From positions 9,987 through 73,986 of the forward strand of contig JBAZUV010000004.1 in assembly GCA_041661185.1 (NCBI GenBank): a DNA stretch of 64,000 bases, in the 5' to 3' direction. Positions within the stretch are counted from its first letter, which is position 1, and each line of letters opens with the position of its first letter. This document shows positions 28,029-57,556 of the stretch, piece after piece. The position numbers and the translations under genes are program-made. This DNA comes from Elusimicrobiota bacterium. Lineage in GTDB: Bacteria > Elusimicrobiota > Elusimicrobia > UBA1565. Under the pieces are notes generated by a model. The model had not been told where the DNA came from and did not search any database. It saw nothing but the letters and a program-made list of their open reading frames with translations.

Positions 28029-28042
28029 AGAGAAGAGAGGGT

Positions 28043-28423
28043 TCAGCCCCTTCCGCGCGCAAGCAGCTGCCTTATGCGCACGGTCAACTCCTGCAGGTCG
28101 AAAGGCTTGGTGATGTACTCGTCGGCCCCGAGCTGAAAGCCCTGCGTCTTCTCCTCGGCGGAGAGGAAGCGGCCTGTCATCATGATGAGGATGGTTTCGC
28201 GAGAGTCCTTGCGCAGGGTCTGGAGTATCTGGAAACCACTGGAATCCGGCAGCTGGATGTCCATGATGACGACCTTCGGATCATGCTTCTTGGCCGCGTC
28301 GATGCCGTCCTTGGCGTTGCCGGCCTGGACGCAGTCGAAGCCTTCCATCTCCAGGACCTCGGCCAGACTTTCGCTCAGGTGGGCGTCGTCGTCGATGATC
28401 AGCAGCTTGGTGGGGGCATTCAT
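28043..28423 (-). CDS. Single-domain response regulator (CheY-like receiver)
   Basis: LLIIDDDAHL, VVIMDIQLPDSSG, MMTGR, DEYITKP. Confidence 0.85.
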   Translation of the reverse strand: MNAPTKLLIIDDDAHLSESLAEVLEMEGFDCVQAGNAKDGIDAAKKHDPKVVIMDIQLPDSSGFQILQTLRKDSRETILIMMTGRFLSAEEKTQGFQLGADEYITKPFDLQELTVRIRQLLARGRG

Positions 28424-28424
28424 G

Positions 28425-36839: not shown

Positions 36840-36840
36840 A

Positions 36841-38364: not shown

Positions 38365-38382
38365 CCTACGTTCCTTCTTTTT

Positions 38383-38490
38383 CGTCACCCCGGGCTTGAC
38401 CCGGGGGCCAGGAGCACGGCCAAACGACTTCCCCTGGATCCCGGCTTCCGCCGGGATGACGAATTTATGGGCTTTCGCCGGGATGACGAG
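38383..38490. repeat. GC-rich hairpin cluster 6
   Basis: gtcaccccgggcttgacccggggg, ctggatcccggcttccgccgggatgac, gggctttcgccgggatgac. Confidence 0.6.
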
Positions 38491-38515
38491 GAGCGCGAAG
38501 GAGACGGCCTCGCGC

Positions 38516-40897: not shown

Positions 40898-40912
40898 ATA
40901 TTATAGACGGCT

Positions 40913-41719
40913 TTATTTCACGATCTCGAACGTCACGAAAAGGAACAACGATTTCTGCTCTTCCAAGACGCTCGTGGTCGTGAAAAGCAGCCCGAGGATC
41001 GGGATGCGGCCCAAGAACGGGACGCGGGTCTTGGTCACGTTCTTGTTGCTGGACTTGAGTCCGCCGATGACGATGGTCTCACCGCTCTTGATCTCGACCT
41101 CGGTCTGGATCTGCCGCGTGACCATGGAAGGCACCGAAGTGTTCCCGACCGTCACGGGCTTCGAGTAGTCCGGGTTCGAGACCTCCAGCTGAAGCTGCGC
41201 GTCGATATAGTCCTTCTTGTTCGGATTGACCACGGGCAGGATGTTCAAGATCACGCCGAATTTCTTGTACTCCACGCCCACTCCCTGGTTATTGGCGACC
41301 GGATAAGGCTGCTCGCCGCCCACCACGAAGTTTGCCTGGGTGGCGGACTTGGTGATGACCTTGGGATTCGAGAGCAGCTGGGCCTTGCCCTCGGTCTCCA
41401 GAAGCTTGAGCGCGGTCTGCAGCTGGGTCAAGCGCTCGAAGTCGCCGATCCTGATGATGCCCGGGATAGGCGCCTTCTCCGCGAAGTTGATGCCGGTCTG
41501 GAAAGGCCCCCAGCTGAATCCCACGTCCTTGGAGATCGAGCCGCTGATCTCCACGACGTCGGCGCTGACCGCGATCATCACATTCTGCGCGTCGTCCTCG
41601 GCGGCCGCCTCCTCCTGCTGAGCCCTCAGGACTCCCGGAGCGAGAGCGAGCAATCCGGCAAGCAACACCCCTGTGAGGGCGCTTGGCCTTCCCGTTGAAC
41701 TTCGCTGTTGTCGTTCCAT
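40913..41719 (-). CDS. Minimal secretin (CpaC/RcpA-like; secretin C-domain only)
   Basis: 268 aa with a signal peptide and the secretin signature (LLSNPKVITKSATQANFVVGGEQPY, GVILNILPVV, GETIVIGGL, TRVPFLGRIPILGLLF); no N0-N3 domains. Confidence 0.8.
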   Translation of the reverse strand: MERQQRSSTGRPSALTGVLLAGLLALAPGVLRAQQEEAAAEDDAQNVMIAVSADVVEISGSISKDVGFSWGPFQTGINFAEKAPIPGIIRIGDFERLTQLQTALKLLETEGKAQLLSNPKVITKSATQANFVVGGEQPYPVANNQGVGVEYKKFGVILNILPVVNPNKKDYIDAQLQLEVSNPDYSKPVTVGNTSVPSMVTRQIQTEVEIKSGETIVIGGLKSSNKNVTKTRVPFLGRIPILGLLFTTTSVLEEQKSLFLFVTFEIVK

Positions 41720-41762
41720 GGTTGTCGTACCGTTTCTTACATCCCGCTAAACAACGCCCCGT

Positions 41763-42518
41763 CTATCTAAATAGTCTCCTGAAGCTCGCCATCTCCAAGG
41801 GGTGCATCTCAACATCCCCCAGGCCGCGCAGGATCACCGTGATGTCTCCCTGCTTCATGGCCAGAGAGAGATACTGCGCCTCCACCGCGTTGAGCGCCAC
41901 GCTCAGGATGCCCTTTTCCGCGAAAGCCGCCGACTGTTCGTCCTTCTTCTCTTTGTCCGCGAAATCCTTGGCCGCCATCCCCTGTCCGAGATTGCTGCCC
42001 ACGCCCAGCACGAGCGTGTTCTGCAGGATGGTGGCCGTGACCTTCTCCTTGCGGTTGTCGGCCATGAGCGCGTCGAAGGTCACCATCACGTCCACGCGGT
42101 CGCCGGGCTTGATGAGCTTGAGGAGCTCGTTCTCCACCGGGATGACGGCCCCGCGGTAGCCGGAGGGGATCTTCACGCTCAGTCCCGTGGTGGGCGAGAG
42201 CGGCGTGACGATCGAATGCGAGAGCTGGTTGCCCTTGGGAATGCGCACGCGCGTGACCAAGTTCGTGATCAGCTCGATGTCCGAGGGCGTCTTGACCTCG
42301 AAGGAATCCTGCGCCATGTATTTGCGCGGGATCTGCATGCCCTGCACGAGGTCCTTCTTAAGGAGAGTGCGCTCGGGCAAGTCCACGCGGGCCACGAGCA
42401 CCGTGGTGTTCTCGTGCGACTTGGCCAGCTGCTTCTCACGGCTGGTCAGGACCAGCAGGTAGAGAGCCGCGGCCGCCACGGCCAGGACCAGAGGGATCAG
42501 GACGCTCTTTTTTTCCAT
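41763..42518 (-). CDS. cpaB: Flp pilus assembly protein CpaB/RcpC (SAF-domain)
   Basis: 251 aa with an N-terminal TM anchor and CpaB-like beta-rich domains (VLVARVDLPERTLLKKDLV..., GDRVDVMVT). Confidence 0.8.
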   Translation of the reverse strand: MEKKSVLIPLVLAVAAAALYLLVLTSREKQLAKSHENTTVLVARVDLPERTLLKKDLVQGMQIPRKYMAQDSFEVKTPSDIELITNLVTRVRIPKGNQLSHSIVTPLSPTTGLSVKIPSGYRGAVIPVENELLKLIKPGDRVDVMVTFDALMADNRKEKVTATILQNTLVLGVGSNLGQGMAAKDFADKEKKDEQSAAFAEKGILSVALNAVEAQYLSLAMKQGDITVILRGLGDVEMHPLEMASFRRLFR

Positions 42519-42555
42519 GGTGCGTCTCCTTTGAACAACGACGTCAACACCGGTG

Positions 42556-43050
42556 CTATTTGAAAAGCGGCCGTTCTATCGGCATCCTTACGATGGCCCG
42601 CAAAAGCCTCGCCTTCTTTCCCGGCTGATCGGCCAAGACCACTCCCGTCATCGGGAAGACCATGGGCACCACGCGCCGGACCTCGACCTGCACGTCGTAG
42701 TTCATGCAGCCTTCCTGCGGATCCAGGAGCGTCGGGATCGGACCCTGGACCGATGCGAACGCCGGCGTCGGCGCCTTGAACATCTGAGCCACCACCTGCT
42801 GGGCCTTGGCCGGATCGAGCGAGGGCACCGCGCAGGAGGCCGAAGGCGTGCTTTTCGCCGTCAAAGAAGCGATGCGCGCGGCCTCGTAGGCCGCATGGTG
42901 GAGGAGGATGGTCTGGAAAGCCAGGAACCCGATCTCCATGATCATGAACATCAGGAACAGGAAGATCGGCAAGATGAGCAGGACCTCCACGAGCACCTGC
43001 CCCTCCTGCGCGCCCGAAAACTTCGGCGCGCGAACCGATCTCCAGACCAC
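42556..43050 (-). CDS. TadE/TadF-like pseudopilin
   Basis: TadE N-terminal motif GQVLVEVLLILPIFLFLMFMIMEIGF. The start is reassigned to the GTG at 43050, preceded by AGGAGGAGGGG; the ORF upstream of it overlaps flp in another frame. Confidence 0.6.
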   Translation of the reverse strand: MVWRSVRAPKFSGAQEGQVLVEVLLILPIFLFLMFMIMEIGFLAFQTILLHHAAYEAARIASLTAKSTPSASCAVPSLDPAKAQQVVAQMFKAPTPAFASVQGPIPTLLDPQEGCMNYDVQVEVRRVVPMVFPMTGVVLADQPGKKARLLRAIVRMPIERPLFK

Positions 43051-43100
43051 CCCCCTCCTCCTGCCGCCGGCGCTTCGTCCGGCGGACTGACGCCTTGCTG

Positions 43101-43292
43101 TTAGTTCGGCGATCCGACCGTGCTGGCGGCTCCGGAGATCATCTGCATGATCTGGTTGAAGATGCCGCTGATCTGCGGCTTGAACATCTTGCCGATCACG
43201 AGGATGACGCCCACGATGACGGCCAGCATCATCAGATACTCCACCGTGTTCTGGCCGCGCTTGCTGCGAAGGAACTCCTTCCATTTCTTCAT
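43101..43292 (-). CDS. flp: Flp-family type IVb pilin (flp-1)
   Basis: 63 aa; MKKWKEFLRSKRG|QNTVEYLMMLAVIVGVILVIG has a prepilin-peptidase G|Q site and a TVEY hydrophobic core. An SD-like AAAGGGGAG lies upstream. Confidence 0.8.
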   Translation of the reverse strand: MKKWKEFLRSKRGQNTVEYLMMLAVIVGVILVIGKMFKPQISGIFNQIMQMISGAASTVGSPN

Positions 43293-43587: not shown

Positions 43588-44568
43588 TCAGAATTTCACC
43601 TTGAGAGACAGCATGTCCGCCGTCCCCAAAGCGCCCATCGAAACCAGCGAATAATCGAAAGCGATGCCGTAGCCGAAGGCCTGCGCGGTATAGAGTCCGA
43701 TGCCGAAGCTCCAGCGCGGGGACCCGATCAAGGGATACATGAAGCTGCGGTCTTTCTCCATGACCTGCCCCATGTCGTCGGCGTTATAGAAGCCCGCGCG
43801 CAATTGGACCTGCCCGATCTGCAGAAGGTCTTCCGGCAAGGTGAATTCCGCGCCGGCTCCCAGCCGCGCGGAGTTGTCGCTGGCCTTGCTGATCTCTCCG
43901 GTCAGGGTCAAGAGCTCCAGTATCCGGCCCGAGGCGCCGACGCGGGTGACGGAGGCGACCTTCGCGGTCCCGGCGCCGATGTTCTGGACGGAGGCGCCCA
44001 AGGTCCAGCCCTGGGCCGGACGCAGGAGCAAGCCCGCGTCGCCCACCACGGAGCTGCGCGCGGAGCCCGCGTTGTCCTCGTGCACGCCCTTGGCGCTGAC
44101 GCCCAGGAAGAGCCGCTCATACCAGAAGGAGCGCGCGAGGCTCAAGGTCGCGAAGCCGTTCTGCACGCGGATATCCGAGGAATCCATGGGACGCCCCTGG
44201 TCGTCGCGCGCATCGAACCCGTCCACGGACATGTAGGCGACGTTGGCTCCCGCCACGGTGCGGCCGAAAGGATGGGCATAGCCCATGTAGAAGGGAGAAT
44301 CGATCTCCTGGACATACCGGTAATAGGAGTAGACGAACTCCTTCTGCTGGGCCAAGGCCAAGCCCGCGGGATTCCAAGTCAGGGCGTCGGCGCCCTCGGC
44401 CAAGGACACATAGGCCCGGCCCAAGGCCATGGCGCGCGCGCTGCCCAGGCCCAGCTTCATGAAATTGGCTCCGCCCGTGCCCGCGGAAGAGTCGATAGCG
44501 GCCGCAGGAGCAGCGGCCGCGAAAGCCAGAACGCATGCCATCGCCGCGCCGCTCATCTTCGTTCTCAT
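43588..44568 (-). CDS. Outer-membrane beta-barrel protein (PorV/PorP-SprF/TraF-like N-terminal motif)
   Basis: 326 aa with signal peptide MRTKMSGAAMACVLAFAAAAPAAA, the motif GLGSARAMALGRAYVSLAEGADALTWNPAGLA, alternating beta-strands and a C-terminal Phe. Its start overlaps the upstream gene's stop (ATGA). Confidence 0.65.
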   Translation of the reverse strand: MRTKMSGAAMACVLAFAAAAPAAAIDSSAGTGGANFMKLGLGSARAMALGRAYVSLAEGADALTWNPAGLALAQQKEFVYSYYRYVQEIDSPFYMGYAHPFGRTVAGANVAYMSVDGFDARDDQGRPMDSSDIRVQNGFATLSLARSFWYERLFLGVSAKGVHEDNAGSARSSVVGDAGLLLRPAQGWTLGASVQNIGAGTAKVASVTRVGASGRILELLTLTGEISKASDNSARLGAGAEFTLPEDLLQIGQVQLRAGFYNADDMGQVMEKDRSFMYPLIGSPRWSFGIGLYTAQAFGYGIAFDYSLVSMGALGTADMLSLKVKF

Positions 44569-47500
44569 GGGATGAGCACCTTGCGCACGACCTGCAGGGG
44601 CGTCTTTTCTCCGCGGTTGGGCTCCTCACGGATGAGCACGAAGTACACGCCGGGCGCCACGGTCCGGCCGGCGCTGTTGGTCTTCGTCCAGACATAATCC
44701 ACATAAGTGTCCGAGGCCTGCACGCCGAAGTCCCGGCTGAAGACGACCTCGCCGGAGAGCGTGTAGATCTTCATCGTGACCTTGGACTGGACCGGCACGT
44801 AGATGTGCGTGCTCATGCTCGTTCCGCGCACGGGGTTCGGATAAAGGATCGTATTGTTGGCGAAGTCCGCCTCGGGATCGACCGAACCGCTGCGCACCAC
44901 CGGGACCTCCGCGATGATGAGGTCCTCGGCCAGGGACGCTCCCAAGCCCACCCCGCCGGAGATGCTGTCGATGGCCCGGATATCGGTGGAGGCCACGATC
45001 TTGAAGAGATAGTTGCCGTCCGGCACGATGGTCAGCCGTTCGTCGGTCCCGTCCCAGATATCCGTGATCTCCGTGCGCGCGGGCCGCACGCCAATGATGC
45101 GCTTGACCAAGCTCTGCGACTCCGGAGGCGTGGCATTGCCGTTGCGGTCGAAATTCGTCCCGGGTTTATAGATTTTGATGCCCACCTTCATGGTCTCGGA
45201 GACCTGATAGGCGATGAGCGCGGTGCCCGCGTCCGGCCGCAAGGGGCTGACCGCCACATCATAGACCCGCAAGGGGTTGGCTGAGATGGTCATCTGCGCC
45301 GTGGAACCCGAGGAGAGCACGGAAGCCAAGTCCTCGGCGATGGCCTGCACGGTATAGAAGCCCGGGCTCACGAAGTTCCCGGAATCATCGCGCGCATCCC
45401 AGAACTCGCGGTTGACGATGCCGGCGTCGCGCACCTGCCCCAAGACCAGGGTCCTGACCACCTGCGGCGAGATGGACGTGCTCAGTATCTGGATGGTGAC
45501 CGAGGACTGCCGGGTCAGGGAGTATTCCACCTGATAAGGAGGCAGCGAAATGGTCTGGCTGGAATTGAAGAGCGTGGGGACCGTGGGAGTGACGTTGAAG
45601 ATCGGGAACACGATGGAGCCGCGCGCGACGGTCACATTGCCCACGATCTGGTCCGTGGCGAAGTAGCGGGGCGTGGTCGTGGACTGCGCCGCCAGCACGA
45701 ACACATAGGTCCCGTCCGGCACAAAGAGGCCGTTGTGGTCGCGTCCGTCCCAGAACTCCGTGATCTTCATGCGTCCGGGCCGCATGCCCTTGATGACGAC
45801 CAAGGGAGTGGTCGGAGAACCGTTGCTGGTGACCTGCGCGCAGGCGCCGGGCTCGATGCTGCGGCACGGCGGCCATGTCGCCGTCGAGCCCGTGATCACG
45901 GTCCCGGGAGGATAGAGGCTCCAAGCCGCCTGCATGGGCTGGGAGAGCTGGTAGCTGATGGTGACCACGTCCGTGGACCCGGTCAAAAGCGGGGTCACGA
46001 CCACGTCCGTGATGCGAAAGAGATTGACCGAGAAGAGCGCGGTCACCGTCGAGACCTTGGACGGCACGAAAGGATCCGCGGCGGTCAGCTGCGCCAGATA
46101 GGTGCCGGAAGTCACCCAGAGCCCGCGGTCGTCGATGGGGATGTTCCAGCGGTCGCGGTTGGCGAAGTTCGCGGGCCTCGATTCATTGGCCACGAGGGTC
46201 TTGACCAGATTGATCCCGGTCTCGTCGTAGATCTTGAGATTGACGACGGCGTCGCGCGAAAGCGTGTAGCCGAAAGTAAAGGGGTCCAGGCCGGCTACGG
46301 AGGGCGAGGAGCCGATGACCGTGGAGGAAGGCCCCACCTGGCTGATGGTGACCATGCCGCGGCTGACCGTGATGAAGCCGCTTCGCGCGTTCGTAGACCA
46401 GATGCGCTGATCAGCAGGGTTCCCATTGAAGGAATAGCCGTTCTGTGAAGGCAGGGAGGCATACAGGACGAAGACATAGTCCCCATCCGGCAGGATATTG
46501 CCTGCGGTATCGCGGCCGTCCCAGATGCTGAGCACGCTCTTGCGAGAATCCTTCTGCTCCTCAATATGCCGCAACAGCGTCGTGGAAGGACCGAAGTTCT
46601 TAGGCACAACCCCCGCAAGATCTCCGAGAGAATTGACGCTATTGAGCCCCTGAGTGAACTCCGTGCCTGGAGCATAGATATCAATATAAACCGTGGCCGG
46701 TTCCGTGATCTGGTAGCTCAGCACCGCCAGGGAGGTGGAAAGGTCCATGAGCGGCTGGACCCGGATATCCGTGATCTGCAAGGTATCTAAGGAAATCTGC
46801 CGGGTGGCTGCCGCTCCCAGATCGAAGCCGAACTGATCTCGCACCATGGGCTGCAAGGTCGCCAAATACACGCCCGGAGGAGCCAAGTCCCCGTTATCCC
46901 AACGCCCGTTCCAAGAGTCCCCATTCTGCAGGCTCCCGTTCGGAACGCCTTCGCCCACGCGAGGAATCCCCGGAACTACGGTACGGATGACGGGGAAACT
47001 CAAGGCCGGATTCGCGGTATTATGGATAGTGAGATACATGGTGGCGTCTTTGGAGAGCCGGTAGGTCAGGTTATAGGGCTCTGCGGCCACGCCCGTAAGC
47101 TCGCCCACGACCGTGGGCGTGGAACGAACCACATGGACATTCGCCACGTCCATGGTGATAGGCGCTTGGTCTACGAATATTCCATTTGCTCCGGTATCGT
47201 CGCAATTCCCCGCGCTATCCAAAGCTTTGGTCGCGCCTGAAGGATACGCCCGAGTCTGCGTGATATTGATGTTCCCGCTGGCCCCGGTTTGGTTCGTGGC
47301 AACGGTCCCGCGGAACCCGAACTGCCCGTTCGTTTTTCCAAACTCACCCAAAATGTTATAGGCCCCGTCCCAAAGCACGCAGGTCGTGGGTACTGCCGCG
47401 TCGGCGGCGGGGTTGTCCGAGTTCGTATCCCCTGGAATGATGCCGGGGTTATCAACAAAAAAAGTACGGATCGGCGGCGCGGATTGCGGATCAAGAGGAT

Positions 47501-47963
47501 TGGTGCCTTGAGCGAATTTGAATATCTCGAAATTGATGTAATCGAGGGCGATGTCCGTGTCAGCAGTGGTCGTGCTTTGGTTGTTGTTCCAGCCCACCTT
47601 GAGGCACAAGAATATCTCCTTGTTGCAGACGTTCCAGACATCGTCTGATTCAGGAAAATTGGGACTGCTGGAGCACGTCGCAGACACCGCCTGATCGAAC
47701 TCGATGCGCGGATCATTGGAGATGTCGCCGTGGTTGGGACAGCGCGCCGTAGGAGTGCAGGTGAATCTCCCGGTCGCGGTAGTAAATGTGCAGACATCTG
47801 GACGAGCAACGAATATCTTCTTGATGAAGATCTGCTGCGCCATTGCCGGACCGGCTGCCGCGAAGAAGAACGCCGCGGCCAGCGCGGCCAAGCGCGCGCC
47901 GACGGAGAAACAACTCCCTCGCCTAAAAGACAGGAGCGCTCCCGGCTCTGCAGGGCTCATCAT
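44565..47963 (-). CDS. ~1130-aa secreted multi-repeat protein: multiple FlgD-Ig-like repeats and a T9SS-type (Por_Secre_tail-like) C-terminal domain
   Basis: Signal peptide starts at the MM codons at 47963 (MMSPAEPGALLSFRRGSCFSVGARLAALAAAFFFAAAGPAMA). The repeat motifs are WDGRDTAGNILPDGDYVFVL, WDGRDHNGLFVPDGTYVFVL, WDARDDSGNFVSPGFYTV and WDGTDERLTIVPDGNYLFKI. The C-terminus reads LYPNPVRGTSMSTHIY...MKIYTLSGEVV...PGVYFVLIREE...KVLIP. Confidence 0.75.
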   Translation of the reverse strand: MMSPAEPGALLSFRRGSCFSVGARLAALAAAFFFAAAGPAMAQQIFIKKIFVARPDVCTFTTATGRFTCTPTARCPNHGDISNDPRIEFDQAVSATCSSSPNFPESDDVWNVCNKEIFLCLKVGWNNNQSTTTADTDIALDYINFEIFKFAQGTNPLDPQSAPPIRTFFVDNPGIIPGDTNSDNPAADAAVPTTCVLWDGAYNILGEFGKTNGQFGFRGTVATNQTGASGNINITQTRAYPSGATKALDSAGNCDDTGANGIFVDQAPITMDVANVHVVRSTPTVVGELTGVAAEPYNLTYRLSKDATMYLTIHNTANPALSFPVIRTVVPGIPRVGEGVPNGSLQNGDSWNGRWDNGDLAPPGVYLATLQPMVRDQFGFDLGAAATRQISLDTLQITDIRVQPLMDLSTSLAVLSYQITEPATVYIDIYAPGTEFTQGLNSVNSLGDLAGVVPKNFGPSTTLLRHIEEQKDSRKSVLSIWDGRDTAGNILPDGDYVFVLYASLPSQNGYSFNGNPADQRIWSTNARSGFITVSRGMVTISQVGPSSTVIGSSPSVAGLDPFTFGYTLSRDAVVNLKIYDETGINLVKTLVANESRPANFANRDRWNIPIDDRGLWVTSGTYLAQLTAADPFVPSKVSTVTALFSVNLFRITDVVVTPLLTGSTDVVTISYQLSQPMQAAWSLYPPGTVITGSTATWPPCRSIEPGACAQVTSNGSPTTPLVVIKGMRPGRMKITEFWDGRDHNGLFVPDGTYVFVLAAQSTTTPRYFATDQIVGNVTVARGSIVFPIFNVTPTVPTLFNSSQTISLPPYQVEYSLTRQSSVTIQILSTSISPQVVRTLVLGQVRDAGIVNREFWDARDDSGNFVSPGFYTVQAIAEDLASVLSSGSTAQMTISANPLRVYDVAVSPLRPDAGTALIAYQVSETMKVGIKIYKPGTNFDRNGNATPPESQSLVKRIIGVRPARTEITDIWDGTDERLTIVPDGNYLFKIVASTDIRAIDSISGGVGLGASLAEDLIIAEVPVVRSGSVDPEADFANNTILYPNPVRGTSMSTHIYVPVQSKVTMKIYTLSGEVVFSRDFGVQASDTYVDYVWTKTNSAGRTVAPGVYFVLIREEPNRGEKTPLQVVRKVLIP

Positions 47964-48176
47964 GACACAGGTTCTACGCACACAAGAGAGTTTAATATCA
48001 GCCCTTTTCTGATTTGTTGATTCGCTGTTAAAAAGATGTTGCGCCGGCCCGTTCCTGAGGCCTGTCTGAATAATGGTATCAGCGCTCATAGGCTCGGGCA
48101 TGGGCCCTTCTGCTCACCCCTCCCCCGCCATAGGACCCACCAGAACCTAGGACCAAAGACTATCTGGTGCCTATCT

Positions 48177-50650: not shown

Positions 50651-52060
50651 TTAACGCCGCTGCAGGCGCTGGTACTCGAGATTGGCCTCGCCGAGGTCCA
50701 CTTCCGTTCCCTTGTAGTCGGCCAGGATGCGCTTGAGGCGCTCGGCCAGCACCAGTTCGGACGCGCCCTGAAGCTTGAGGTCCTGATAGGCGCGCCAATC
50801 ATCGGAGAACCTGAGCTTCACATCCGCCCGGCGCAGGCGTTCCTGCTCCTCCTGCATCTTCTCAAGCTTGCGCTGGGCCTCGACCCGGCGCCGCTCCATG
50901 GCCTTGAGTTGGATCTCCCGCTCCAAAAGCCTGGCCCTGAGTTCAGCCTCTCCCCGACCCGCGGCATCCTCCGCGGACTGCTTGCGCAGGGCTTCCATCT
51001 CCTCGCGCAGGAGCTTGAGCTCCTCGGCCAGGCGCCACTGCTTGAGCTCCGCGGATTCCAAGGCCTTGCCCAGCTCCCGGCGGGAAGACATCTCGGATTT
51101 AAGCAGGGTCTCGTACTCCGTCTCCGGGTTCCAGGAGCCGAAGCGCCAGCTCATGCTCACGACATGGCTCCAGCGCGTGCCGCTCGAAAGCGGGATGCGC
51201 AGGGCATAATCCACTCGCGCGCCCAGACGCTTGAATCCCGCGCCCAAGCTCCAGGAGCGCGCCAAGCCTCCGAGCGTGAGTCCGCTCCTGGCCAGGAAGG
51301 TGCCGAAGCCCGCGGTGCTCCAGGAGCACTCGCTGGCCAAGGTCGCGGCATAGGCCGTACGCCGGCCCGAGGAAGGCTCTCTGCCCGCCCAGTCCATGAG
51401 GACCTTGTAGCGCCGGACCTGCTGGGCGAAACCGAAACGCATGGTGAGCGGCGCTCGGTCCGGGATCCCGGGAAGATCCAGGCGCGGAGCATTCAGATTG
51501 AGGAAGGAGAGTCCCAAGGAACGATCATCGGAAAGCTTAAGAGAAAAACCCAGGTCCCCGGCCGCGCGGGTCAAGCCTCCTCCCGTTCTTCGCCCCGAGC
51601 GGGAAAGCCCTCGGACGCCCACGCCCAGGTTCAGTATCGCGGGCCCGATCTCGCGCCAGTTGCGCGTGCCGTAGGCAAAGCCGAACTGCCGGTCCAAGGC
51701 CGTGTTCCCCAGGATATCGTGGGTCCAGTAGGCGGCTAAGCCGCCTTCGAGCGGCCCATGGAGCTGGGTCCCGGCCGCAGCAGTCATGCCCTCCATGTCC
51801 GTCTCCGCGGCCGCGGCATGGAAAAGCCTTCGCGCCGAGAGCTCCACGTCCGTGCGTTCCAGGGAGCCGGCCGCGGCCGGATTGATGGACACGACCTCGG
51901 CATCGTCGGATAGAGCCGTCACCGCGTCGCCCAATCCGGCCGCGCGCGCGCCCAAACCCACGTCCTCGAAAGCCGCCCGCGCGGGCGCAGCAGCAGAGAG
52001 GAACGCAGCCATGAGTCCAAGTCTGATGTCCATTCCCCGCCGGCTCTTGATAAGACTCAT
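50651..52060 (-). CDS. Outer-membrane beta-barrel-like protein (same N-terminal motif family as 43588-44568) with C-terminal coiled-coil extension
   Basis: Signal peptide, then GLGARAAGLGDAVTALSDDAEVVSINPAAAG, and a ~130-aa Glu/Arg-rich heptad tail (LRKQSAEDAAGRGEAELRARLLEREIQLKAMERRRVEAQRKLEKMQEEQERLRR). Confidence 0.6.
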   Translation of the reverse strand: MSLIKSRRGMDIRLGLMAAFLSAAAPARAAFEDVGLGARAAGLGDAVTALSDDAEVVSINPAAAGSLERTDVELSARRLFHAAAAETDMEGMTAAAGTQLHGPLEGGLAAYWTHDILGNTALDRQFGFAYGTRNWREIGPAILNLGVGVRGLSRSGRRTGGGLTRAAGDLGFSLKLSDDRSLGLSFLNLNAPRLDLPGIPDRAPLTMRFGFAQQVRRYKVLMDWAGREPSSGRRTAYAATLASECSWSTAGFGTFLARSGLTLGGLARSWSLGAGFKRLGARVDYALRIPLSSGTRWSHVVSMSWRFGSWNPETEYETLLKSEMSSRRELGKALESAELKQWRLAEELKLLREEMEALRKQSAEDAAGRGEAELRARLLEREIQLKAMERRRVEAQRKLEKMQEEQERLRRADVKLRFSDDWRAYQDLKLQGASELVLAERLKRILADYKGTEVDLGEANLEYQRLQRR

Positions 52061-53139: not shown

Positions 53140-54513
53140 TCAGCCGTCCGTGGGCTTGAGGCTGCCCAAGACCTCGCGCGCTTTCAAAAGCTCCACGGCG
53201 CGCTCGAGCACCACGTCCTTGACCGGCTCCTTCTCCTTGGCGCCGGGCTTATCCTTGGAGCCTTCCTTGGCCGCGGGCTTGGCATCCTTAGCATCCTTGG
53301 CGTCCTTGACAGGAGGCGTGAATACCTCGTCGTTCTGGGAGATCTGGAGCTTGATCTCGGTCTCGCGGTCCACGGGCACCACGATATCCGGCGTGATGCC
53401 GCCCGTGTTCTTCTTCTCGTCGCGCTGGATCGAGCGCCCGTTGGGCGTGTAGTACTTGGCCACGGTCAGGCGCAGGCCCGAGCCGTCGCCCAGCGGAATG
53501 ACGGACTGCACGCTCGCCTTTCCGAAGGTCCGGTCTCCCACGATCACGGCGCGGCGATGGTCCTGCAATGCGCCGGAGACGATCTCGCTGGCCGAGGCGG
53601 AACCCTCGTTGACCAGCACTACCATGGGCAGATTCCCGAAAGGAGCCTTGCTCCCTCCGCGGAAATCCTGCCGGCTCTCCGGCCGCCGGCCCTGCGTATA
53701 GACGATGAGCTTGTTGTCCCCAAGGAAGTCCGAAGACACGTCCACGGCCGCGGTGAGCAGGCCGCCCGGATTGTTGCGCAAGTCCAACACCAGGGAGCTG
53801 GCTCCATCCTTGACGAGCTTCGAGAGCCCCTTGTAGACGTCCTCCGAGGTGTGCGCGCTGAACTCGATGATGCGCAGATAGCCGACCTTGTCCGAGAGCA
53901 GGCGCGACTGCACGCTCTCGATCTTGATGACCTCGCGCACCAGCGTGAAGTCCTGGGTGGTCCACTCCTTCTTCGAGTCCTTGCCGTCCTCCTCGGGAGC
54001 GCGCGCCACGGTGAAGGCGACCTTGGTCCCCGGCGCTCCGCGGAGCTTCTTGACCGCCTCGACGAGGGAAAGTCCCTTGGTGCTCTCCGCCTCGATCTTG
54101 ATGATGCGGTCCTCCGGCAGGACGCCGGCCTTGAAGGCGGGCGTGCCCGGCATGGGCGTGATGACCGTCAGCCAGTCCTCGCGCATGCCGATGCGGATGC
54201 CCAGCCCGCCGAATTGTCCCTCAGTCTCGGTCTTGAGGTCCTTGTGGAGTTCGGGGTCCATGAACTGGGAGAAGGGGTCGAGAACCTTGACCATGCCCGC
54301 GGCGGCGCCGTAGATGAGCTTCTTGGTCTCGATTTCCTCGACGTAGTTCTCCTGGATGTAGTCCAGGATGTCCACAAGGATCTTGAGCTGCTCATAAGTC
54401 CTGTCCACGGCCGCGGCCGTGCGCGGCAGGGCCCATACACCGGCGAACCCTAGAACGAAGGCCAGCCCTGCGCACTTCAATCTCCGGACAAGCTTTCCAT
54501 CGTTCATCGTCAT
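53140..54513 (-). CDS. Carboxyl-terminal processing protease (S41, CtpA/Prc-like) with PDZ domain
   Basis: Signal peptide, PDZ (GGLGIRIGMREDW...KAGVLPEDRIIKIEA), and an S41 catalytic region (GYLRIIEFS, LVLDLRNNPGGLL, LVNEGSASASEIVSGALQD, TFGKASVQ). Confidence 0.9.
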   Translation of the reverse strand: MTMNDGKLVRRLKCAGLAFVLGFAGVWALPRTAAAVDRTYEQLKILVDILDYIQENYVEEIETKKLIYGAAAGMVKVLDPFSQFMDPELHKDLKTETEGQFGGLGIRIGMREDWLTVITPMPGTPAFKAGVLPEDRIIKIEAESTKGLSLVEAVKKLRGAPGTKVAFTVARAPEEDGKDSKKEWTTQDFTLVREVIKIESVQSRLLSDKVGYLRIIEFSAHTSEDVYKGLSKLVKDGASSLVLDLRNNPGGLLTAAVDVSSDFLGDNKLIVYTQGRRPESRQDFRGGSKAPFGNLPMVVLVNEGSASASEIVSGALQDHRRAVIVGDRTFGKASVQSVIPLGDGSGLRLTVAKYYTPNGRSIQRDEKKNTGGITPDIVVPVDRETEIKLQISQNDEVFTPPVKDAKDAKDAKPAAKEGSKDKPGAKEKEPVKDVVLERAVELLKAREVLGSLKPTDG

Positions 54514-54517: not shown

Positions 54518-56425
54518 CTATTGGACAGTGAGCACCGTCAGCGGATCCAGGGGCATCTGCCCCTGCCGCACTTCGAAATAGACCCCGCCCTCCTCTCCCG
54601 AGGAGGAGGCGATATCCGCGCCCGCGGCCACGCGCTCGCCCACGCGCGCGCTCGACTGCTCCAAATGGCCGTATATCCCGTAAAAACCCGCGTCATGGTC
54701 CACGATCAAAACGTTCCCATAAGAGCGGAAGGTTCCCGCGAAGATCACCTTGCCGGCCGCGACCGCGCGCACGCGCGTCCCGGGAGCGGTCTCGATGCTG
54801 ATTCCGTTGTGGAACGTCCAGGTCCCGAGCCCCGGCACCTGGGTCTTGCCGAAGCGCTGGGTCACCCGTCCTTCCACGGGCCACGGCAGGGAATGCAAAG
54901 GCACGGGCGCGCGCCGGACAGGCTCTTTCGCGCCGGCCGCGGCGCGCCGCTTGCGCTCGATAGCGTCGATGACGCTGGCCATCGCCCGCGCGGACTCTTC
55001 AAGCTCGGCCACCTCTTTCTGAAGGGCCGCGGCGCGCGCGCCGGTCTCGCGCAGGACCTGCCGGCGTCCCTGATAAGCTTCTTCCTTCTCATTGATCCGA
55101 CCCTTGGCCTGATCGGCCTTCGAGCGCATGATGAGTTCGTCGACGCGGGCGTTCTCATGCTGATGGCTGGCGCGGCCCTCGGCTTCCCGCAGGCCGCCGA
55201 GCAGCCCCGCGCGGCGCAGATAGACCCGCCGCCGCAAGGCTTGCCGCCAGAGGTCCGCGCGGCCGTAGCGAGGCTCCGAGGAAGCCAGAGCCAAGGCATA
55301 GGCCCGCAAGTCCTGGCCCAGCAAACGGCGGTCGCGCTCGCGCGCATTGCGCAGCAGGCCCGCTTCCCGGCGCATCCTTTCAGCGCGTTCGGAAGCGGCC
55401 CTGCGCTGTTCCGAAAAGCGCAGGTAGCTGCGCTGAGCCTTCTGCTTCTCGTCGAGGATCTCAGAGATCTCCTTCTTCGTGCGCTGCTGGCGTTCCTGGA
55501 GTTCGCGGGCCTCCTGCTTCTTGTGCTCGATCTGCTCCTGCAGGCGCTCCAGATCCTTGCGCCGGCTATTGGCGCCCGCCGCGCTCGCCGGGACCGCGGA
55601 AGAGAGCAGTATCGCGCACATCACCGAGAGAGCCGCCGCCTTTCCCGCTTCCCGGTGATGATGTTCCTCCCGCGAGGACCCGGGCAGGAGCAGCCCGGTC
55701 AAGCCGGAAAGCAGTATCCAGAGGATCTGCGGCCACACGCCCACCTCCAAAGAAGCCGTCCCGCTGCGATGCGCGGGCCAGAGCGCCAAGGCCATGAGCA
55801 AGAGCCCCAGAACGCAGCCCGCGGACGCTGCCGCGGGATTGCGCCAAGACCCGCGCAAGCGCAGATCCCCAAAGACAAAAGGAGAAAGCCGCAGCGCCAG
55901 GAACAGGAACCATATCCCCGCGCAGAAAGAGAGCGCCAGCGTCGTCAGGCGTTCGCACAGACGAAGACGCATAAGAGCTTCGAGCTGCAGCGGCTTATAA
56001 AGGATGTCCCCGGTCTCCGGGATCGCGGAGACCGCATGCAGGATGTCCGCGAAGGAATTCATGCCGGACTCGGAGAGCTCCAGCTCCGCGGCATCCGGCA
56101 AAGGGTTCTCCCCCAGGAATGCGGCCGCACGAAGAAGGTCAGGGTCCTCCTGGGCATAGGCCTTGAGTCCCTCGGAGGGAGGGATGGAGCGCAAGGACAG
56201 GACGCCCGGCAGGATGCGCAGCTTCTCCGAGACAACGCTTCGCCGGGCGGAGTCGACTCCGTCGCGCAGATAGACCAGCACGCGGAAATCCTCGCGCAGC
56301 TGCGCGGCGGCGTCCGCGGCTTGGCCGCGCGTCCAAAGCAAGGTCCGGCCGAGCACGCCCAAGGTCAGTCCCAGAAGGAAAAACGAGACCGCCGGCCGCA
56401 AAGCCGCATATTCCCTTAACCGCAT
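54518..56425 (-). CDS. Single-polypeptide FtsX-like module (TM1-periplasmic domain-3 TM) joined to EnvC-like coiled-coil + M23/LytM peptidase domain
   Basis: The N-terminus is FtsX-like (AVSFFLLGLTLGVLG, ECD FRVLVYLRDGVDSARRSVVSEKLRILPGV...LGENPLP, then 3 TM). It continues in frame into a signal-like AALSVMCAILLSSAVPASAAG, ~230 aa of coiled-coil, and M23 motifs (HNGISIETAPGTRVRAVAAGKVIFAG, YGNVLIVDHDAGFYGIYGHL). Confidence 0.7.
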   Translation of the reverse strand: MRLREYAALRPAVSFFLLGLTLGVLGRTLLWTRGQAADAAAQLREDFRVLVYLRDGVDSARRSVVSEKLRILPGVLSLRSIPPSEGLKAYAQEDPDLLRAAAFLGENPLPDAAELELSESGMNSFADILHAVSAIPETGDILYKPLQLEALMRLRLCERLTTLALSFCAGIWFLFLALRLSPFVFGDLRLRGSWRNPAAASAGCVLGLLLMALALWPAHRSGTASLEVGVWPQILWILLSGLTGLLLPGSSREEHHHREAGKAAALSVMCAILLSSAVPASAAGANSRRKDLERLQEQIEHKKQEARELQERQQRTKKEISEILDEKQKAQRSYLRFSEQRRAASERAERMRREAGLLRNARERDRRLLGQDLRAYALALASSEPRYGRADLWRQALRRRVYLRRAGLLGGLREAEGRASHQHENARVDELIMRSKADQAKGRINEKEEAYQGRRQVLRETGARAAALQKEVAELEESARAMASVIDAIERKRRAAAGAKEPVRRAPVPLHSLPWPVEGRVTQRFGKTQVPGLGTWTFHNGISIETAPGTRVRAVAAGKVIFAGTFRSYGNVLIVDHDAGFYGIYGHLEQSSARVGERVAAGADIASSSGEEGGVYFEVRQGQMPLDPLTVLTVQ

Positions 56426-56475: not shown

Positions 56476-57492
56476 TCAGTCTTTTTTGGAGCGCAGGAGC
56501 GCGGAGACAGCCACGATCAGCGTGAGCAGAAAGGTCCCAAGAAGAAGCGTCGGCCTCTGGGAAACAGCATACTTCAGGAAGCGCTTGGACATCGGCCCGG
56601 AGGATTCTTCTTCAGGGACAGGCACGCTGTCCGGAGAGGGCACGATCTTGACCACCGCGGGATCGCGCAAGACCCGTTCAAGATAAGGCACGGGCACTCG
56701 CGCGGAAAGGATAAGCGCCATCTGGCTGGTCCCGGGGATCATCTGATAGCCCACGATGCGCCGCAGTCGGAAGGCGGCGCGCTCGGACAGCCGCGAAAGG
56801 ACCTGGGCCAGGACCGCGCTGGGAGACTCTCCCGCGGGCACGCGCACTCCCACGAGGATGTCCGTAGTGGACATGTCGGGCAGGCTGCGCATGACCGGGG
56901 AGCGCTCCACGTTGACCCGTTGGACCTCGGCGCCGAAGATGTCGCCTAAGCGCGAAGGGAATATCCAGCCCCGCACGGTCACGCGGCGGCGCGTATCATC
57001 GGCGAACGCCGGCGCATAGCGTTGGTCGAGCCTGAGCCCCGAGCGGGCGCTGACCTCGGCCACTGCGTCGCGGTACTCTCCCGGATGCGCGGAGATGTCG
57101 ATATCCACGGACACGAAAAGCCCGTCCTCGGAGACGGGCTCCCGATCCAAAGAGGCGATCGCCGCCGGGATCCCCCGATCCGCGCGCCGCAAAGCATCGG
57201 CGGAGGGGACTCGTCCGCCCTGCAGGAGCGTGGGCGCGGCCGGCCCGCTCCAGAGAGCGTAGCGCATGGCTCCGCTCGGGGCATCGCGCAGATCGTCTTC
57301 CGCGGAAACCGGGCCCGTGGAGCGGACCACGTCCGTCTTGCGCATCTGAGCCTCGGAGATCGTCAGGCCCGGAACGTCCTTGGAGAAGAATGTCTTCACA
57401 TCCGCGGCATCGACACGAGAGGAAGGCCGCATGAACGCCCACGCCGCGATATAGACGAGCAAAACAACCAGCGCGCGCCGCCAAGCCCTCAT
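56476..57492 (-). CDS. Hypothetical exported protein with C-terminal TM anchor
   Basis: Start is reassigned to the ATG at 57492 (MRAWRRALVVLLVYIAAWAFMRPSS); the ORF extension to 57549 covers the palindrome-fragment region. C-terminal TM is TLLLGTFLLTLIVAVSALL. Confidence 0.5.
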   Translation of the reverse strand: MRAWRRALVVLLVYIAAWAFMRPSSRVDAADVKTFFSKDVPGLTISEAQMRKTDVVRSTGPVSAEDDLRDAPSGAMRYALWSGPAAPTLLQGGRVPSADALRRADRGIPAAIASLDREPVSEDGLFVSVDIDISAHPGEYRDAVAEVSARSGLRLDQRYAPAFADDTRRRVTVRGWIFPSRLGDIFGAEVQRVNVERSPVMRSLPDMSTTDILVGVRVPAGESPSAVLAQVLSRLSERAAFRLRRIVGYQMIPGTSQMALILSARVPVPYLERVLRDPAVVKIVPSPDSVPVPEEESSGPMSKRFLKYAVSQRPTLLLGTFLLTLIVAVSALLRSKKD

Positions 57493-57556
57493 GAAGCCAT
57501 TGTATTCGAGCCCAGCTATGAAGTCAACGACATTGACGCCAGGCGTCAACTGCGAG

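What the first reader, a model, noticed from the sequence alone, without database searches (positions are those of the whole stretch)
54518..56425. FtsX-like membrane module and EnvC-like M23 peptidase encoded as one polypeptide
In model bacteria FtsE and FtsX form an ABC-like complex whose periplasmic loop activates the separate coiled-coil LytM factor EnvC. Here a protein with FtsX topology (TM, a periplasmic domain with the ...ENPLP motif, three TM) runs without a stop into a signal-peptide-like hydrophobic stretch, a long coiled-coil and an M23 domain (HNGISIE...VLIVDHDAGFYGIYGHL). Physically linking the regulator and the hydrolase or activator is noteworthy. No ftsE is adjacent.
Basis: partly seen in the sequence, partly recalled or inferred. 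Interest (0 to 1): 0.6.

Follow-up and report, generated by a model that had tools for sequence, protein, structure and literature searches.

The report
FtsX-like and EnvC-like genes fused
In one lineage of Elusimicrobiota, the membrane protein FtsX and its periplasmic partner EnvC (which switches on cell-wall-cutting enzymes at division) are encoded as a single gene, and this FtsX has lost the parts that normally dock its ATPase motor FtsE, so a core division machine may work differently here.

Summary
Window 54518-56425 (minus strand) is one 635-aa ORF. It reads: compact FtsX-like module (TM1, Porter/X-lobe domain with GENPLP, TM2-4), short cytoplasmic linker, fifth hydrophobic segment, about 220-aa coiled-coil hairpin, LytM/M23 domain.

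It is not an assembly artefact. The identical protein is called on four contigs from different sources. At least 18 diverged clusters (23-71% identity), Elusimicrobiota wherever named, keep the fusion.

Sister lineages have two genes whose start and stop overlap (e.g. ATGA). There the envC-like gene begins with a signal peptide, which became "TM5" of the fusion.

The M23 domain lacks the zinc ligands (Asp never present; third ligand always Tyr, as in E. coli EnvC). It is an activator module, not a hydrolase.

The FtsX part passes FtsX_ECD and matches full-length FtsX structures by fold. It fails PF02687, lacks the coupling-helix motif (0 of 58) and has almost no N-terminal cytoplasmic segment. 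No ABC ATPase lies near any compact-clade locus, whereas four canonical relatives have ftsE directly upstream.

Best reading: a real fusion of an FtsE-uncoupled FtsX-like receptor with an EnvC-like activator, possibly cleaved at the retained signal peptide. Whether ftsE exists elsewhere, and whether cleavage occurs, remain untested. This is a new variant of a known system.

The parts
54518..56425 (-). Whole fused ORF, 635 aa plus stop codon (54518-54520)
   Evidence: ORF listing. Identical protein on four contigs from different sources. Colinear homologues.
56333..56395 (-). TM1 (aa 11-31), preceded by only about 10 cytoplasmic residues, so there is no room for a canonical elbow helix
   Evidence: Hydropathy. 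AF2 helix 3-46. Canonical-length FtsX have 17-22 aa before TM1 against 4-10 here.
55952..56332 (-). Periplasmic FtsX ECD (aa 32-158): Porter fold plus X-lobe, ending in the conserved FLGENPLP
   Evidence: PF18075 at 26.7 bits, above the 23.5 cut-off. Profile hit to the E. coli FtsX periplasmic domain 6tpi_B. Foldseek hits to FtsX ECD structures 6tpi_B, 6hee, 4n8n. Most conserved stretch of the N-terminal module.
55676..55951 (-). TM2-TM3-TM4 (aa 159-250) with a short, poorly conserved TM2-TM3 loop (aa 182-198) in place of the FtsE-docking coupling helix
   Evidence: Hydropathy. Foldseek alignment to full-length FtsX chains over 264-288 columns. No PF02687 hit. Loop pairwise identity 20% with indels. 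Coupling-helix motif in 0 of 58 clade members.
55640..55675 (-). Cytoplasmic linker (aa 251-262). It corresponds to the former FtsX C-terminal tail plus the basic n-region of the EnvC signal peptide
   Evidence: Least conserved segment. Split homologues stop here.
55574..55639 (-). Fifth hydrophobic segment, the retained EnvC signal peptide (aa 263-284, ...AAALSVMCAILLSSAVPASAAG). It is needed to carry the EnvC part across the membrane, and a possible signal peptidase I site (ASA/AG) follows it
   Evidence: Aligns with the signal peptide of V. cholerae EnvC. Homologous to the N-terminal signal peptides of the split envC-like genes. n/h/c anatomy is present in 19 of 19 fused lineages, but the AxA rule is not discriminating.
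54911..55573 (-). Antiparallel coiled-coil hairpin (aa 285-505): helix I to about aa 382, turn at 383-388, helix II at 389-497. Conserved patches lie just after the turn (391-410) and at 471-490, the position of the restraining arm in EnvC
   Evidence: AF2 helices with pLDDT 86-97 over most of both helices. HMM alignment to full-length EnvC 8tzk_E, 8hd0_E, 6tpi_A. Conservation profile.
54521..54889 (-). Degenerate LytM/M23 domain (aa 513-635), non-catalytic
   Evidence: PF01551, E 1.8e-21. Best PDB matches are EnvC LytM domains 4bh5, 8c0j_B. Zinc ligands absent across 19 lineages.
53140..54513 (-). CtpA-like S41 C-terminal processing protease, 4 nt downstream. A conserved neighbour, also found in canonical ftsE-ftsX-M23-ctpA operons
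   Evidence: Pfam and NCBIfam. Conserved order in all loci.
56476..57549 (-). Conserved upstream gene of unknown function (signal peptide, Pro/Ala-rich spacer in relatives, conserved region of about 200 aa, C-terminal membrane anchor). It occupies the position that ftsE has in canonical operons
   Evidence: tblastn conservation in 10 of 13 distinct Elusimicrobia loci of that scan, window included. Sequences and hydropathy. No Pfam, NCBIfam or PDB match.

Best explanation
This is a genuine, evolutionarily maintained gene fusion in one clade of Elusimicrobiota. The ancestral state, still seen in sister lineages, was two translationally coupled genes. The first encoded a compact FtsX-like protein of about 245 aa. 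The second was an envC-like gene whose start overlapped the first gene's stop and whose product began with a Sec signal peptide. Merging the frames produced one polypeptide. Because the FtsX C-terminus is cytoplasmic, the old signal peptide now acts as a fifth membrane-spanning segment that exports the coiled coil and LytM domain to the periplasm (shown by homology and topology). The exported part is a non-catalytic EnvC-type activator. It has a two-helix coiled-coil hairpin, a conserved segment where EnvC has its autoinhibitory restraining arm, and a LytM domain without zinc ligands. It presumably binds and activates a peptidoglycan hydrolase at division (inferred from EnvC). The FtsX-like part keeps its X-lobe domain, which in E. 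coli clamps the hairpin tip of EnvC, so it most likely still serves as the membrane receptor for the EnvC module (inferred from conservation). It has lost the coupling helix, the elbow-helix region and the PF02687 signature, and ftsE is missing from the operon throughout the clade. I therefore infer, at about 60%, that the device no longer takes ATP-driven input from FtsE and is regulated in another way. Candidates are the conserved tail-anchored periplasmic protein encoded upstream, or the CtpA protease encoded downstream. I also infer, at about 55%, that signal peptidase I cleaves after the retained signal peptide and releases a free EnvC N-terminus. The canonical geometry needs the hairpin tip at the membrane-proximal ECDs and a free N-terminal helix about 140 A away.
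For: Real and conserved: ORF; identical protein on four contigs from different sources; colinear homologues at 32-61% identity; 14 fused-length clusters in the exhaustive search and 18 fused-length sequences on the tree; all named members are Elusimicrobiota. Origin: the split loci L009-L014 and L017 have the ftsX-like stop overlapping, or lying 8 nt before, an envC-like start followed by a signal peptide. On the NJ tree the fused forms fall in essentially one clade nested among split forms, parsimony root split. EnvC identity: aa 271-637 align to full-length EnvC 8tzk_E at E 9e-29, including its signal peptide; Foldseek hits 8tzl_E and 6tpi_A. Non-catalytic: the Asp ligand is never Asp and the third ligand is Tyr in 18 of 18. 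FtsX identity: PF18075 and Foldseek to full-length FtsX 8ymc_C at 2e-7 and 8i6o_A at 3.6e-7. Conservation peaks at the X-lobe, after the hairpin turn, at the restraining-arm position and in LytM; the minima are the three cytoplasmic segments. FtsE uncoupling: no PF02687 hit; coupling motif in 0 of 58 clade members against 20 of 37 canonical hits; short N-terminus and short loops. No ABC ATPase in the window or in any compact-clade locus, whereas L018, L019, L022 and L023 have one directly upstream. The coupling helix is the conserved FtsE-docking element (PMC11627006). Geometry argument for cleavage: the ECDs bind EnvC residues 114-128 and 141-160 at the hairpin tip in a 2:1 complex (PMC7668044), and a free EnvC N-terminus must pair with the restraining arm (PMC12505981). 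Here only 3-8 residues separate the hydrophobic segment from helix I.
Against: Only +-10 kb around each locus could be read, so an ftsE or another NBD gene elsewhere in these genomes is not excluded (searches were uninformative). The membrane part of the AF2 model has low confidence (pLDDT below 50 for much of aa 182-282), and the alignments behind it hold only six sequences. The small-x-small cleavage rule is met in 19 of 19 lineages but also in 99.7% of composition-preserving shuffles, so it is no evidence for cleavage. The uncharged stretch (median 21 aa) is long enough to be a stable membrane anchor in most lineages. A 1:1 product does not match the 2:1 FtsX:EnvC complex of E. coli. No amidase with an AmiA/B/C-type regulatory insertion was found in the window; the one amidase present is of LytH/CwlV type. 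The tree has no support values.
Confidence: 0.7

Rival explanations
1. Permanently tethered single chain. The fifth hydrophobic segment is not cleaved, and EnvC stays covalently anchored by the N-terminus of helix I. LytM and the restraining arm are then membrane-proximal and the hairpin tip points away. The ECD must either bind a different surface in cis, or bind the hairpin tip of a neighbouring molecule in trans, forming lateral chains at the septum.
For: The gene encodes one chain. The uncharged stretch has a median of 21 aa, enough to span a membrane. AF2 draws a continuous helix from the hydrophobic segment into helix I, but at low confidence. The fusion has been kept through deep divergence, which could mean that the tether itself is selected.
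Against: The canonical contact is at the hairpin tip, and a free N-terminus is needed for activation. Helix I is about 95 residues, roughly 140 A, so a cis ECD could not reach the tip. The hydrophobic core is only 13-17 residues in eight of 19 lineages, and a Pro or Gly lies near its end in 17 of 19, which is typical of cleavable signal peptides. Split relatives use the same segment as an ordinary N-terminal signal peptide.
Confidence: 0.32
2. Canonical ATP-driven FtsEX-EnvC with ftsE simply encoded elsewhere. FtsE, or another ABC ATPase, still docks on a diverged cytoplasmic face and drives EnvC activation as in E. coli.
For: The overall FtsX fold and the X-lobe are retained. Genomes could not be searched in full. 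ABC partners are sometimes encoded apart from each other.
Against: The coupling-helix motif is absent in 0 of 58 members, PF02687 gives no hit, and the N-terminal cytoplasmic region is nearly absent. The cytoplasmic segments are the least conserved parts of the protein. Presence of the motif and adjacency of ftsE correlate perfectly: 4 of 4 against none in any compact-clade locus.
Confidence: 0.25
3. Assembly or sequencing artefact: a lost stop or a frameshift near 55650 that merges two adjacent genes.
For: Close relatives (L009, L010) do have two overlapping genes, so a single-base error could create a false fusion.
Against: The identical fused protein is called on four contigs from different sources. 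Fusions occur in many diverged clusters with different linker sequences. The linker region is in frame in all of them.
Confidence: 0.02
4. The C-terminal domain is an active M23 endopeptidase directly controlled by the FtsX-like module, in the way FtsEX controls the hydrolases PcsB, CwlO or RipC in Gram-positive bacteria and mycobacteria.
For: Strong Peptidase_M23 hit. Half of the lineages keep the first His, and 11 of 19 have Glu at the Asp position.
Against: No lineage has a complete HxxxD plus HxH set. The third ligand is invariantly Tyr, exactly as in the inactive E. coli EnvC. The best structural and sequence matches are EnvC LytM domains.
Confidence: 0.03

Closest known systems
FtsEX-EnvC amidase-activation complex of E. 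coli, P. aeruginosa and V. cholerae (PDB 6TPI, 8HD0, 8I6O, 8TZK)
   Same: It has the same two periplasmic players: an FtsX Porter/X-lobe domain between TM1 and TM2, and an EnvC with a signal peptide, a two-helix coiled-coil hairpin, a segment at the restraining-arm position and a zinc-less LytM domain with the same LYFE-type substitution. The same ftsX-M23-ctpA gene order is seen in canonical relatives (L018, L023).
   Different: The two proteins are encoded as one ORF. The FtsX part is compact (about 250 aa), fails PF02687 and lacks the coupling helix and the elbow region. No ftsE lies in the operon or within 10 kb. Fused synthesis is 1:1, against the 2:1 complex. EnvC equivalog score thresholds are not reached.
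Split compact FtsX-like plus EnvC-like gene pairs of other Elusimicrobiota (e.g. loci L009-L014, L017, L020, L024, L025)
   Same: They have the same compact FtsX-like module without a coupling helix, the same EnvC-like partner and no ftsE; most are also followed by ctpA and tsaD. They are clearly the direct evolutionary precursor.
   Different: They are two ORFs with overlapping stop and start (ATGA, or 19-nt overlaps). EnvC has an ordinary N-terminal signal peptide.
FtsEX-PcsB (S. pneumoniae), FtsEX-CwlO with SweCD (B. subtilis), FtsEX-RipC (M. tuberculosis)
   Same: An FtsX ECD holds a coiled-coil-containing cell-wall factor. Extra membrane co-factors such as SweC/SweD can be required (title and abstract of PMC6705773, listed), which is a possible analogy for the conserved upstream gene.
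   Different: In those systems the partners are active hydrolases (CHAP or NlpC/P60), are separate proteins, and depend on the FtsE ATPase.
Polyprotein precursors processed at an internal signal peptide: the Bradyrhizobium FbcH cytochrome b-c1 precursor (from my own knowledge, not checked here) and flavivirus structural polyproteins (PMC7601889, listed)
   Same: A polytopic membrane part is followed by an internal signal peptide that exports the next module. Signal peptidase then separates the two.
   Different: Processing is demonstrated in those cases. Here it is only inferred from geometry and from the retained signal-peptide anatomy.

Membership tests
FtsX (permease-like cell division protein, type VII ABC transporter membrane subunit) | Four transmembrane helices with a large extracytoplasmic domain between TM1 and TM2 | tested here: met
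   Hydropathy. AF2 secondary structure. Foldseek alignment to full-length FtsX chains 8ymc_C and 8i6o_A over 264-288 columns, E 2e-7 to 4e-7, TM 0.5.
FtsX (permease-like cell division protein, type VII ABC transporter membrane subunit) | ECD with Porter fold plus X-lobe (Pfam PF18075) | tested here: met
   PF18075 at 26.7 bits against a cut-off of 23.5. Weak profile hit to E. coli FtsX ECD 6tpi_B, E 0.016. Fold hits to 6tpi_B, 6hee, 6hfx, 4n8n.
FtsX (permease-like cell division protein, type VII ABC transporter membrane subunit) | FtsX permease domain signature (PF02687) and full-length equivalog score (TIGR00439 or NF038347) | tested here: not met
   No PF02687 hit. TIGR00439 scores 38 bits against a cut-off of 255 and covers only model positions 21-175. 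Precomputed Pfam shows PF02687 on the canonical relatives L022 and L023 but not on compact-clade genes.
FtsX (permease-like cell division protein, type VII ABC transporter membrane subunit) | Conserved coupling helix between TM2 and TM3 that inserts into FtsE | tested here: not met
   The motif E-I-x-I-M-K/R-x-V-G-A is absent in 0 of 58 compact-clade members and present in 20 of 37 canonical-length hits. The loop is 10-25 aa, 20% identical and has indels. Role of the helix is taken from PMC11627006.
FtsX (permease-like cell division protein, type VII ABC transporter membrane subunit) | Partner ATPase FtsE, usually encoded immediately upstream | tested here: not met
   No ABC ATPase in the 64-kb window or in any compact-clade locus. 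The positive controls L018, L019, L022 and L023 have one directly upstream. Presence elsewhere in the genome could not be tested.
EnvC (murein hydrolase activator, LytM factor) | Exported protein with an N-terminal antiparallel coiled-coil hairpin followed by a C-terminal LytM domain | tested here: met
   Profile alignment of aa 271-637 to full-length EnvC 8tzk_E (E 9e-29), 8hd0_E and 6tpi_A. AF2 helices to aa 382 and 389-497 at high pLDDT. Foldseek hits 8tzl_E and 6tpi_A.
EnvC (murein hydrolase activator, LytM factor) | Catalytically dead LytM domain (zinc ligands missing) | tested here: met
   HNGIS replaces HxxxD and VYFE replaces HxH. Across 19 lineages Asp is never present, the third ligand is Tyr in 18 of 18, and the first His of HxH is present in 1 of 18.
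EnvC (murein hydrolase activator, LytM factor) | Restraining-arm helix occluding the LytM groove; hairpin tip bound by two FtsX X-lobes | tested here: inconclusive
   Conserved patches lie at the expected positions (aa 391-410 and 471-490), but there is no confident inter-domain model (pTM 0.33) and no coordinates were available.
EnvC (murein hydrolase activator, LytM factor) | NCBIfam equivalog threshold (NF008644) | tested here: not met
   64.5 bits against a cut-off of 270, LytM region only. It is EnvC-like, not an EnvC equivalog.
EnvC (murein hydrolase activator, LytM factor) | Activates AmiA/AmiB-type amidases that carry an autoinhibitory helix | not testable with these tools
   The only amidase in the window (11878-13878) is of LytH/CwlV type and aligns to AmiA/B/C only in two pieces around their regulatory insertion.
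Active M23 (lysostaphin/LytM-type) zinc metallopeptidases | HxxxD and HxH zinc-binding and catalytic motifs | tested here: not met
   as above.

The most novel reading that the evidence does not exclude
Across Elusimicrobiota, FtsX has become an ATPase-independent periplasmic receptor. In the fused clade the chain stays uncleaved, so a core division switch (EnvC release from autoinhibition) would be driven without ATP. Instead it would use a single-chain, inverted or in-trans FtsX-EnvC architecture, possibly controlled by the conserved tail-anchored upstream protein or by CtpA proteolysis.
Probability: 0.2. Interest if true: 0.75.

Novelty: new variant of a known kind. Interest (0 to 1): 0.52.

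Why it matters
FtsEX-EnvC is the textbook example of an ABC "mechanotransmitter". Every current model has FtsE's ATP cycle pushing on EnvC through FtsX, with two FtsX per EnvC and a free EnvC N-terminus.

A phylum-level lineage that keeps the periplasmic half of the machine would bear on this model in three ways. It has discarded the recognisable FtsE-docking elements, and in one clade it fuses FtsX and EnvC into one gene.

- It is independent evolutionary (Rosetta-stone) evidence that the FtsX-EnvC partnership extends far beyond Proteobacteria.
- It offers a natural test of whether EnvC-type activators can be regulated without ATP input.
- It poses a concrete puzzle of stoichiometry and topology (1:1, N-terminus tethered) that distinguishes between mechanistic models.

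It also corrects annotation. Pipelines name these proteins either "FtsX" or "M23 endopeptidase/EnvC" and never both, and the M23 part is not a peptidase.

Tried and rejected
- **Single-sequence phmmer of the N-terminal 262 aa against the PDB:** no hit even at E 10. The profile gave only weak ECD hits. Fold comparison was needed.
- **Small-x-small (-3/-1) rule as evidence for signal-peptidase cleavage:** rejected. Composition-preserving shuffles satisfy it 99.7% of the time in these Ala-rich segments.
- **Internal translation start that could make a separate EnvC from the fused gene:** the only in-frame start-type codons near the junction lie inside the hydrophobic core (GTG268, ATG269) without a nearby Shine-Dalgarno sequence. 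There is no support for this.
- **Lipoprotein signal:** by eye, I saw no lipobox in the window protein or in the L009/L010 signal peptides.
- **Finding ftsE or canonical ftsX in Elusimicrobiota:** the cluster look-up of canonical FtsX hits returned no taxon names. The FtsE homologue search listed 120 hits, none named Elusimicrobiota. Three literature searches found nothing. All were uninformative.
- **The in-window amidase as the obvious target:** not supported, because it lacks the regulatory insertion.
- **Function of the upstream 357-aa gene:** no Pfam, NCBIfam or PDB match. The best hit was an ACT-domain protein at E 0.39, which is not significant.
- **Promoter and terminator scans of 50-60 kb:** at chance level.
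- **Model coordinates:** not exposed, so ECD to coiled-coil distances could not be measured.
Full report
**1. The observation**

The window carries an uninterrupted 635-aa ORF at 54518-56425 on the minus strand. Hydropathy gives five hydrophobic segments at aa 11-31, 159-186, 196-219, 228-248 and 260-285. Pfam finds Peptidase_M23 at aa 538-628 (E 1.8e-21) and FtsX_ECD at aa 49-137 (26.7 bits, cut-off 23.5), but not the FtsX permease family PF02687. NCBIfam's FtsX_Gneg model aligns only its positions 21-175 of 292, far below its cut-off. The C-terminus hits EnvC, ActS, DipM and NlpD models, all below their equivalog thresholds.

**2. Not an artefact**

The identical protein is held by NCBI, JGI, ENA and Logan and is called on four contigs from different sources. 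Five further full-length, colinear relatives of 32-61% identity carry both domains. An exhaustive profile search with the N-terminal module found 561 relatives. The 58 best (E <= 1e-30) fall into two length classes: fused (578-647 aa, 13 clusters, with one more at lower rank) and stand-alone (about 222-324 aa). All members that carry a taxon name are Elusimicrobia/Elusimicrobiota, including Elusimicrobiaceae.

**3. What each half is**

The profile of the six full-length proteins aligns aa 271-637 end to end with full-length EnvC of V. cholerae (8tzk_E, E 9e-29), E. coli (8hd0_E, 6tpi_A) and P. aeruginosa. The alignment includes the EnvC signal peptide opposite the fifth hydrophobic segment. 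AF2 predicts two long helices (to aa 382, and 389-497) at high confidence, followed by a beta-rich LytM domain. Foldseek with the full model recovers both EnvC chains (8tzl_E, 6tpi_A) and FtsX chains (8i6o_A, 8ymc_C).

The N-terminal module alone has no PDB match by single-sequence search. Its profile gives only weak ECD matches to E. coli FtsX (E 0.016-0.05). Its AF2 model (pLDDT 70, with TM3-TM4 poorly defined) nevertheless has full-length FtsX chains from FtsEX(-EnvC) cryo-EM structures as best matches (8ymc_C at 2e-7, 8i6o_A at 3.6e-7, 264-288 aligned columns). Isolated FtsX ECDs follow, and MacB and LolC/E come later. The module is therefore FtsX-derived over its whole length, but strongly diverged in the membrane part.

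**4. The M23 domain is an activator, not an enzyme**

Across 19 fused lineages the Asp of HxxxD is never Asp (11 Glu; the rest Arg, Ser, Lys, Thr or His). The first His is kept in only 9 of 19. The catalytic His of YxHL is kept in 6 of 18. The first His of HxH is present in 1 of 18, and the third zinc ligand is Tyr in 18 of 18. That last change is the same LYFE substitution seen in the E. coli EnvC alignment.

**5. Origin of the fusion and of "TM5"**

A scan of species-representative genomes returned 11 Elusimicrobia loci plus two outgroups. In all the Elusimicrobia loci the order is FtsX-like module, coiled coil, LytM, CtpA-like S41 protease, TsaD. In 10 of the 13 distinct Elusimicrobia loci of that scan (window included) it is preceded by a homologue of the 357-aa upstream gene.

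Six distinct loci, including the window, are fused. Seven are split, with the FtsX-like ORF (234-249 aa) ending just after TM4. In the split loci the envC-like start overlaps the ftsX-like stop: ATGA in L009 and L010, 19-nt overlaps in L011, L013, L014 and L017. In L012 it follows 8 nt later. The product begins with a classic signal peptide directly followed by the coiled-coil start, e.g. MARRGLILAALSAVLAAPASA|QSSQKKELARIQ.

The fused genes keep that segment internally. A basic n-region, a hydrophobic core and small residues a few positions before the coiled coil are present in 19 of 19 lineages. On an NJ tree of the shared module the 18 fused clusters form essentially one clade nested among 40 split clusters. 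Parsimony puts the root at split and needs three changes (no support values). The topology makes sense. The FtsX C-terminus is cytoplasmic, so an export signal is indispensable for the EnvC part.

**6. Loss of the FtsE interface**

The review literature states that the coupling helix between TM2 and TM3 is the conserved element that inserts into FtsE, and that TM1 starts with an elbow helix (PMC11627006).

In this clade only 4-10 residues precede TM1, against 17-22 in canonical-length FtsX. The TM2-TM3 loop is mostly shorter. It is the least conserved part of the protein, with 20% pairwise identity and indels, and the minima in 19 lineages fall on all three cytoplasmic segments. A coupling-helix motif derived from the canonical hits is absent in 0 of 58 clade members and present in 20 of 37 canonical-length hits.

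Gene context agrees. Four motif-positive, PF02687-positive relatives (L018, L019, L022, L023) have an ABC ATPase immediately upstream. L018 and L023 show ftsE-ftsX-M23-ctpA. No ABC ATPase occurs in the 64-kb window or in any compact-clade locus, including the basal split ones. This was re-tested with real FtsE probes over 374 kb.

Whether an ftsE exists elsewhere in these genomes could not be tested. and the literature searches were uninformative.

**7. How it most likely works**

These points are shown by homology and conservation:
- an exported EnvC-type module with a coiled-coil hairpin;
- a conserved patch at the restraining-arm position (aa 471-490) and a dead LytM domain;
- an FtsX X-lobe domain whose FLGENPLP end is the most conserved part of the N-terminal module;
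- a conserved patch just after the hairpin turn (aa 391-410).

In E. coli, two FtsX ECDs clamp exactly that region of EnvC, the end of helix I and the start of helix II, in a 2:1 complex (PMC7668044). Activation requires the free EnvC N-terminal heptads to pair with the restraining arm (PMC12505981).

From this I infer that the FtsX-like module is still the membrane receptor for the EnvC-like module. Helix I is about 95 residues (roughly 140 A) and begins 3-8 residues after the hydrophobic segment. An uncleaved chain could therefore not place its hairpin tip on its own ECD. That favours cleavage by signal peptidase I after the retained signal peptide, i.e. a polyprotein. I put this at about 55%. 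The simple cleavage-site rule is not discriminating here (99.7% in shuffles). The short hydrophobic cores (13-17 aa in eight of 19 lineages) and the Pro or Gly near the end of the core (17 of 19) are only suggestive.

The alternative is a permanently tethered, inverted or in-trans arrangement (about 32%). Given the missing FtsE interface, I infer at about 60% that control is not ATP-driven. The conserved tail-anchored periplasmic protein upstream and the conserved CtpA protease downstream are candidate regulators. This last step is speculation.

**8. Comparison and novelty**

The system works like FtsEX-EnvC on the periplasmic side. It fails the membership tests for canonical FtsX (PF02687, equivalog score, coupling helix, adjacent ftsE) and for an EnvC equivalog (score threshold). 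It meets the architectural tests for both.

Four searches aimed at a fused or FtsE-less FtsX and a recent FtsEX review turned up no description of a fused FtsX-EnvC or of an FtsE-less FtsX lineage. Annotation pipelines label these proteins either FtsX or M23/EnvC. I rate it a new variant of a known kind. It is moderately interesting as found, and more so if FtsE independence or an uncleaved tether is confirmed.

Noticed in passing
window 38516-40897 (-), within cluster 35946-43284: A 793-aa protein combines an N-terminal CbiA/ParA/MinD-like domain (aa 67-279) with a T2SSE/CpaF-type secretion ATPase (aa 430-709). It looks like a TadZ(CpaE)-TadA(CpaF) fusion. It sits in a Tad/Flp pilus cluster with two T2SSF proteins, a secretin, RcpC and TadE.
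   Followed up: no
window 11878-13878 (-): A 666-aa protein has a C-terminal Amidase_3 domain (aa 470-640) of LytH/CwlV type. It aligns to AmiA/B/C only in two pieces around their regulatory insertion, so it is not an obvious EnvC-regulated amidase. Its 470-aa N-terminal part has no annotation.
   Followed up: partly
window 56476-57549 (-); homologues in L001, L003, L008, L010-L013, L015, L016: A conserved gene of unknown function lies directly upstream of the FtsX-like gene in most Elusimicrobia loci, where ftsE sits in canonical operons. It encodes a signal peptide, a variable Pro/Ala-rich spacer, a conserved region of about 200 aa and a C-terminal membrane anchor with a basic tail. It has no Pfam, NCBIfam or PDB match.
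   Followed up: partly
window 50651-52060 (-): A 469-aa protein has a weak UPF0164 hit (E 0.004) and a charged, coiled-coil-like C-terminal part. It is conserved a few genes downstream of the fusion in most Elusimicrobia loci.
   Followed up: no
window 4451-11668 (-), 15804-22085 (-), 44565-48101 (-): Three very large ORFs of 2405, 2093 and 1178 aa. The last has faint CHU_C/FlgD_ig hits and is conserved near the locus in relatives. They are presumably large surface proteins and were not analysed.
   Followed up: no
window 1635-3452 (-), 23860-29231 (-): A dense set of two-component signalling genes: HAMP/HisKA histidine kinases, a hybrid receiver-kinase, a dCache_1 sensor kinase, and LuxR-type and OmpR-type response regulators.
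   Followed up: no
full-length model m47e0e109bb29 (fusion protein): The top Foldseek PDB hit was a cyanophage A4 pre-ejectosome protein (9k2v_A, E 7.6e-9, 692 aligned columns but TM only 0.13). This is probably a generic long-coiled-coil plus M23 resemblance.
   Followed up: no
L009 786-789, L010 2132-2135: Two different MAGs whose CtpA is 75-80% identical to the window's have the two-gene form, with an ATGA stop/start overlap at the same place. A fission, or retention of the ancestral state, therefore occurs close to the fused clade.
   Followed up: partly
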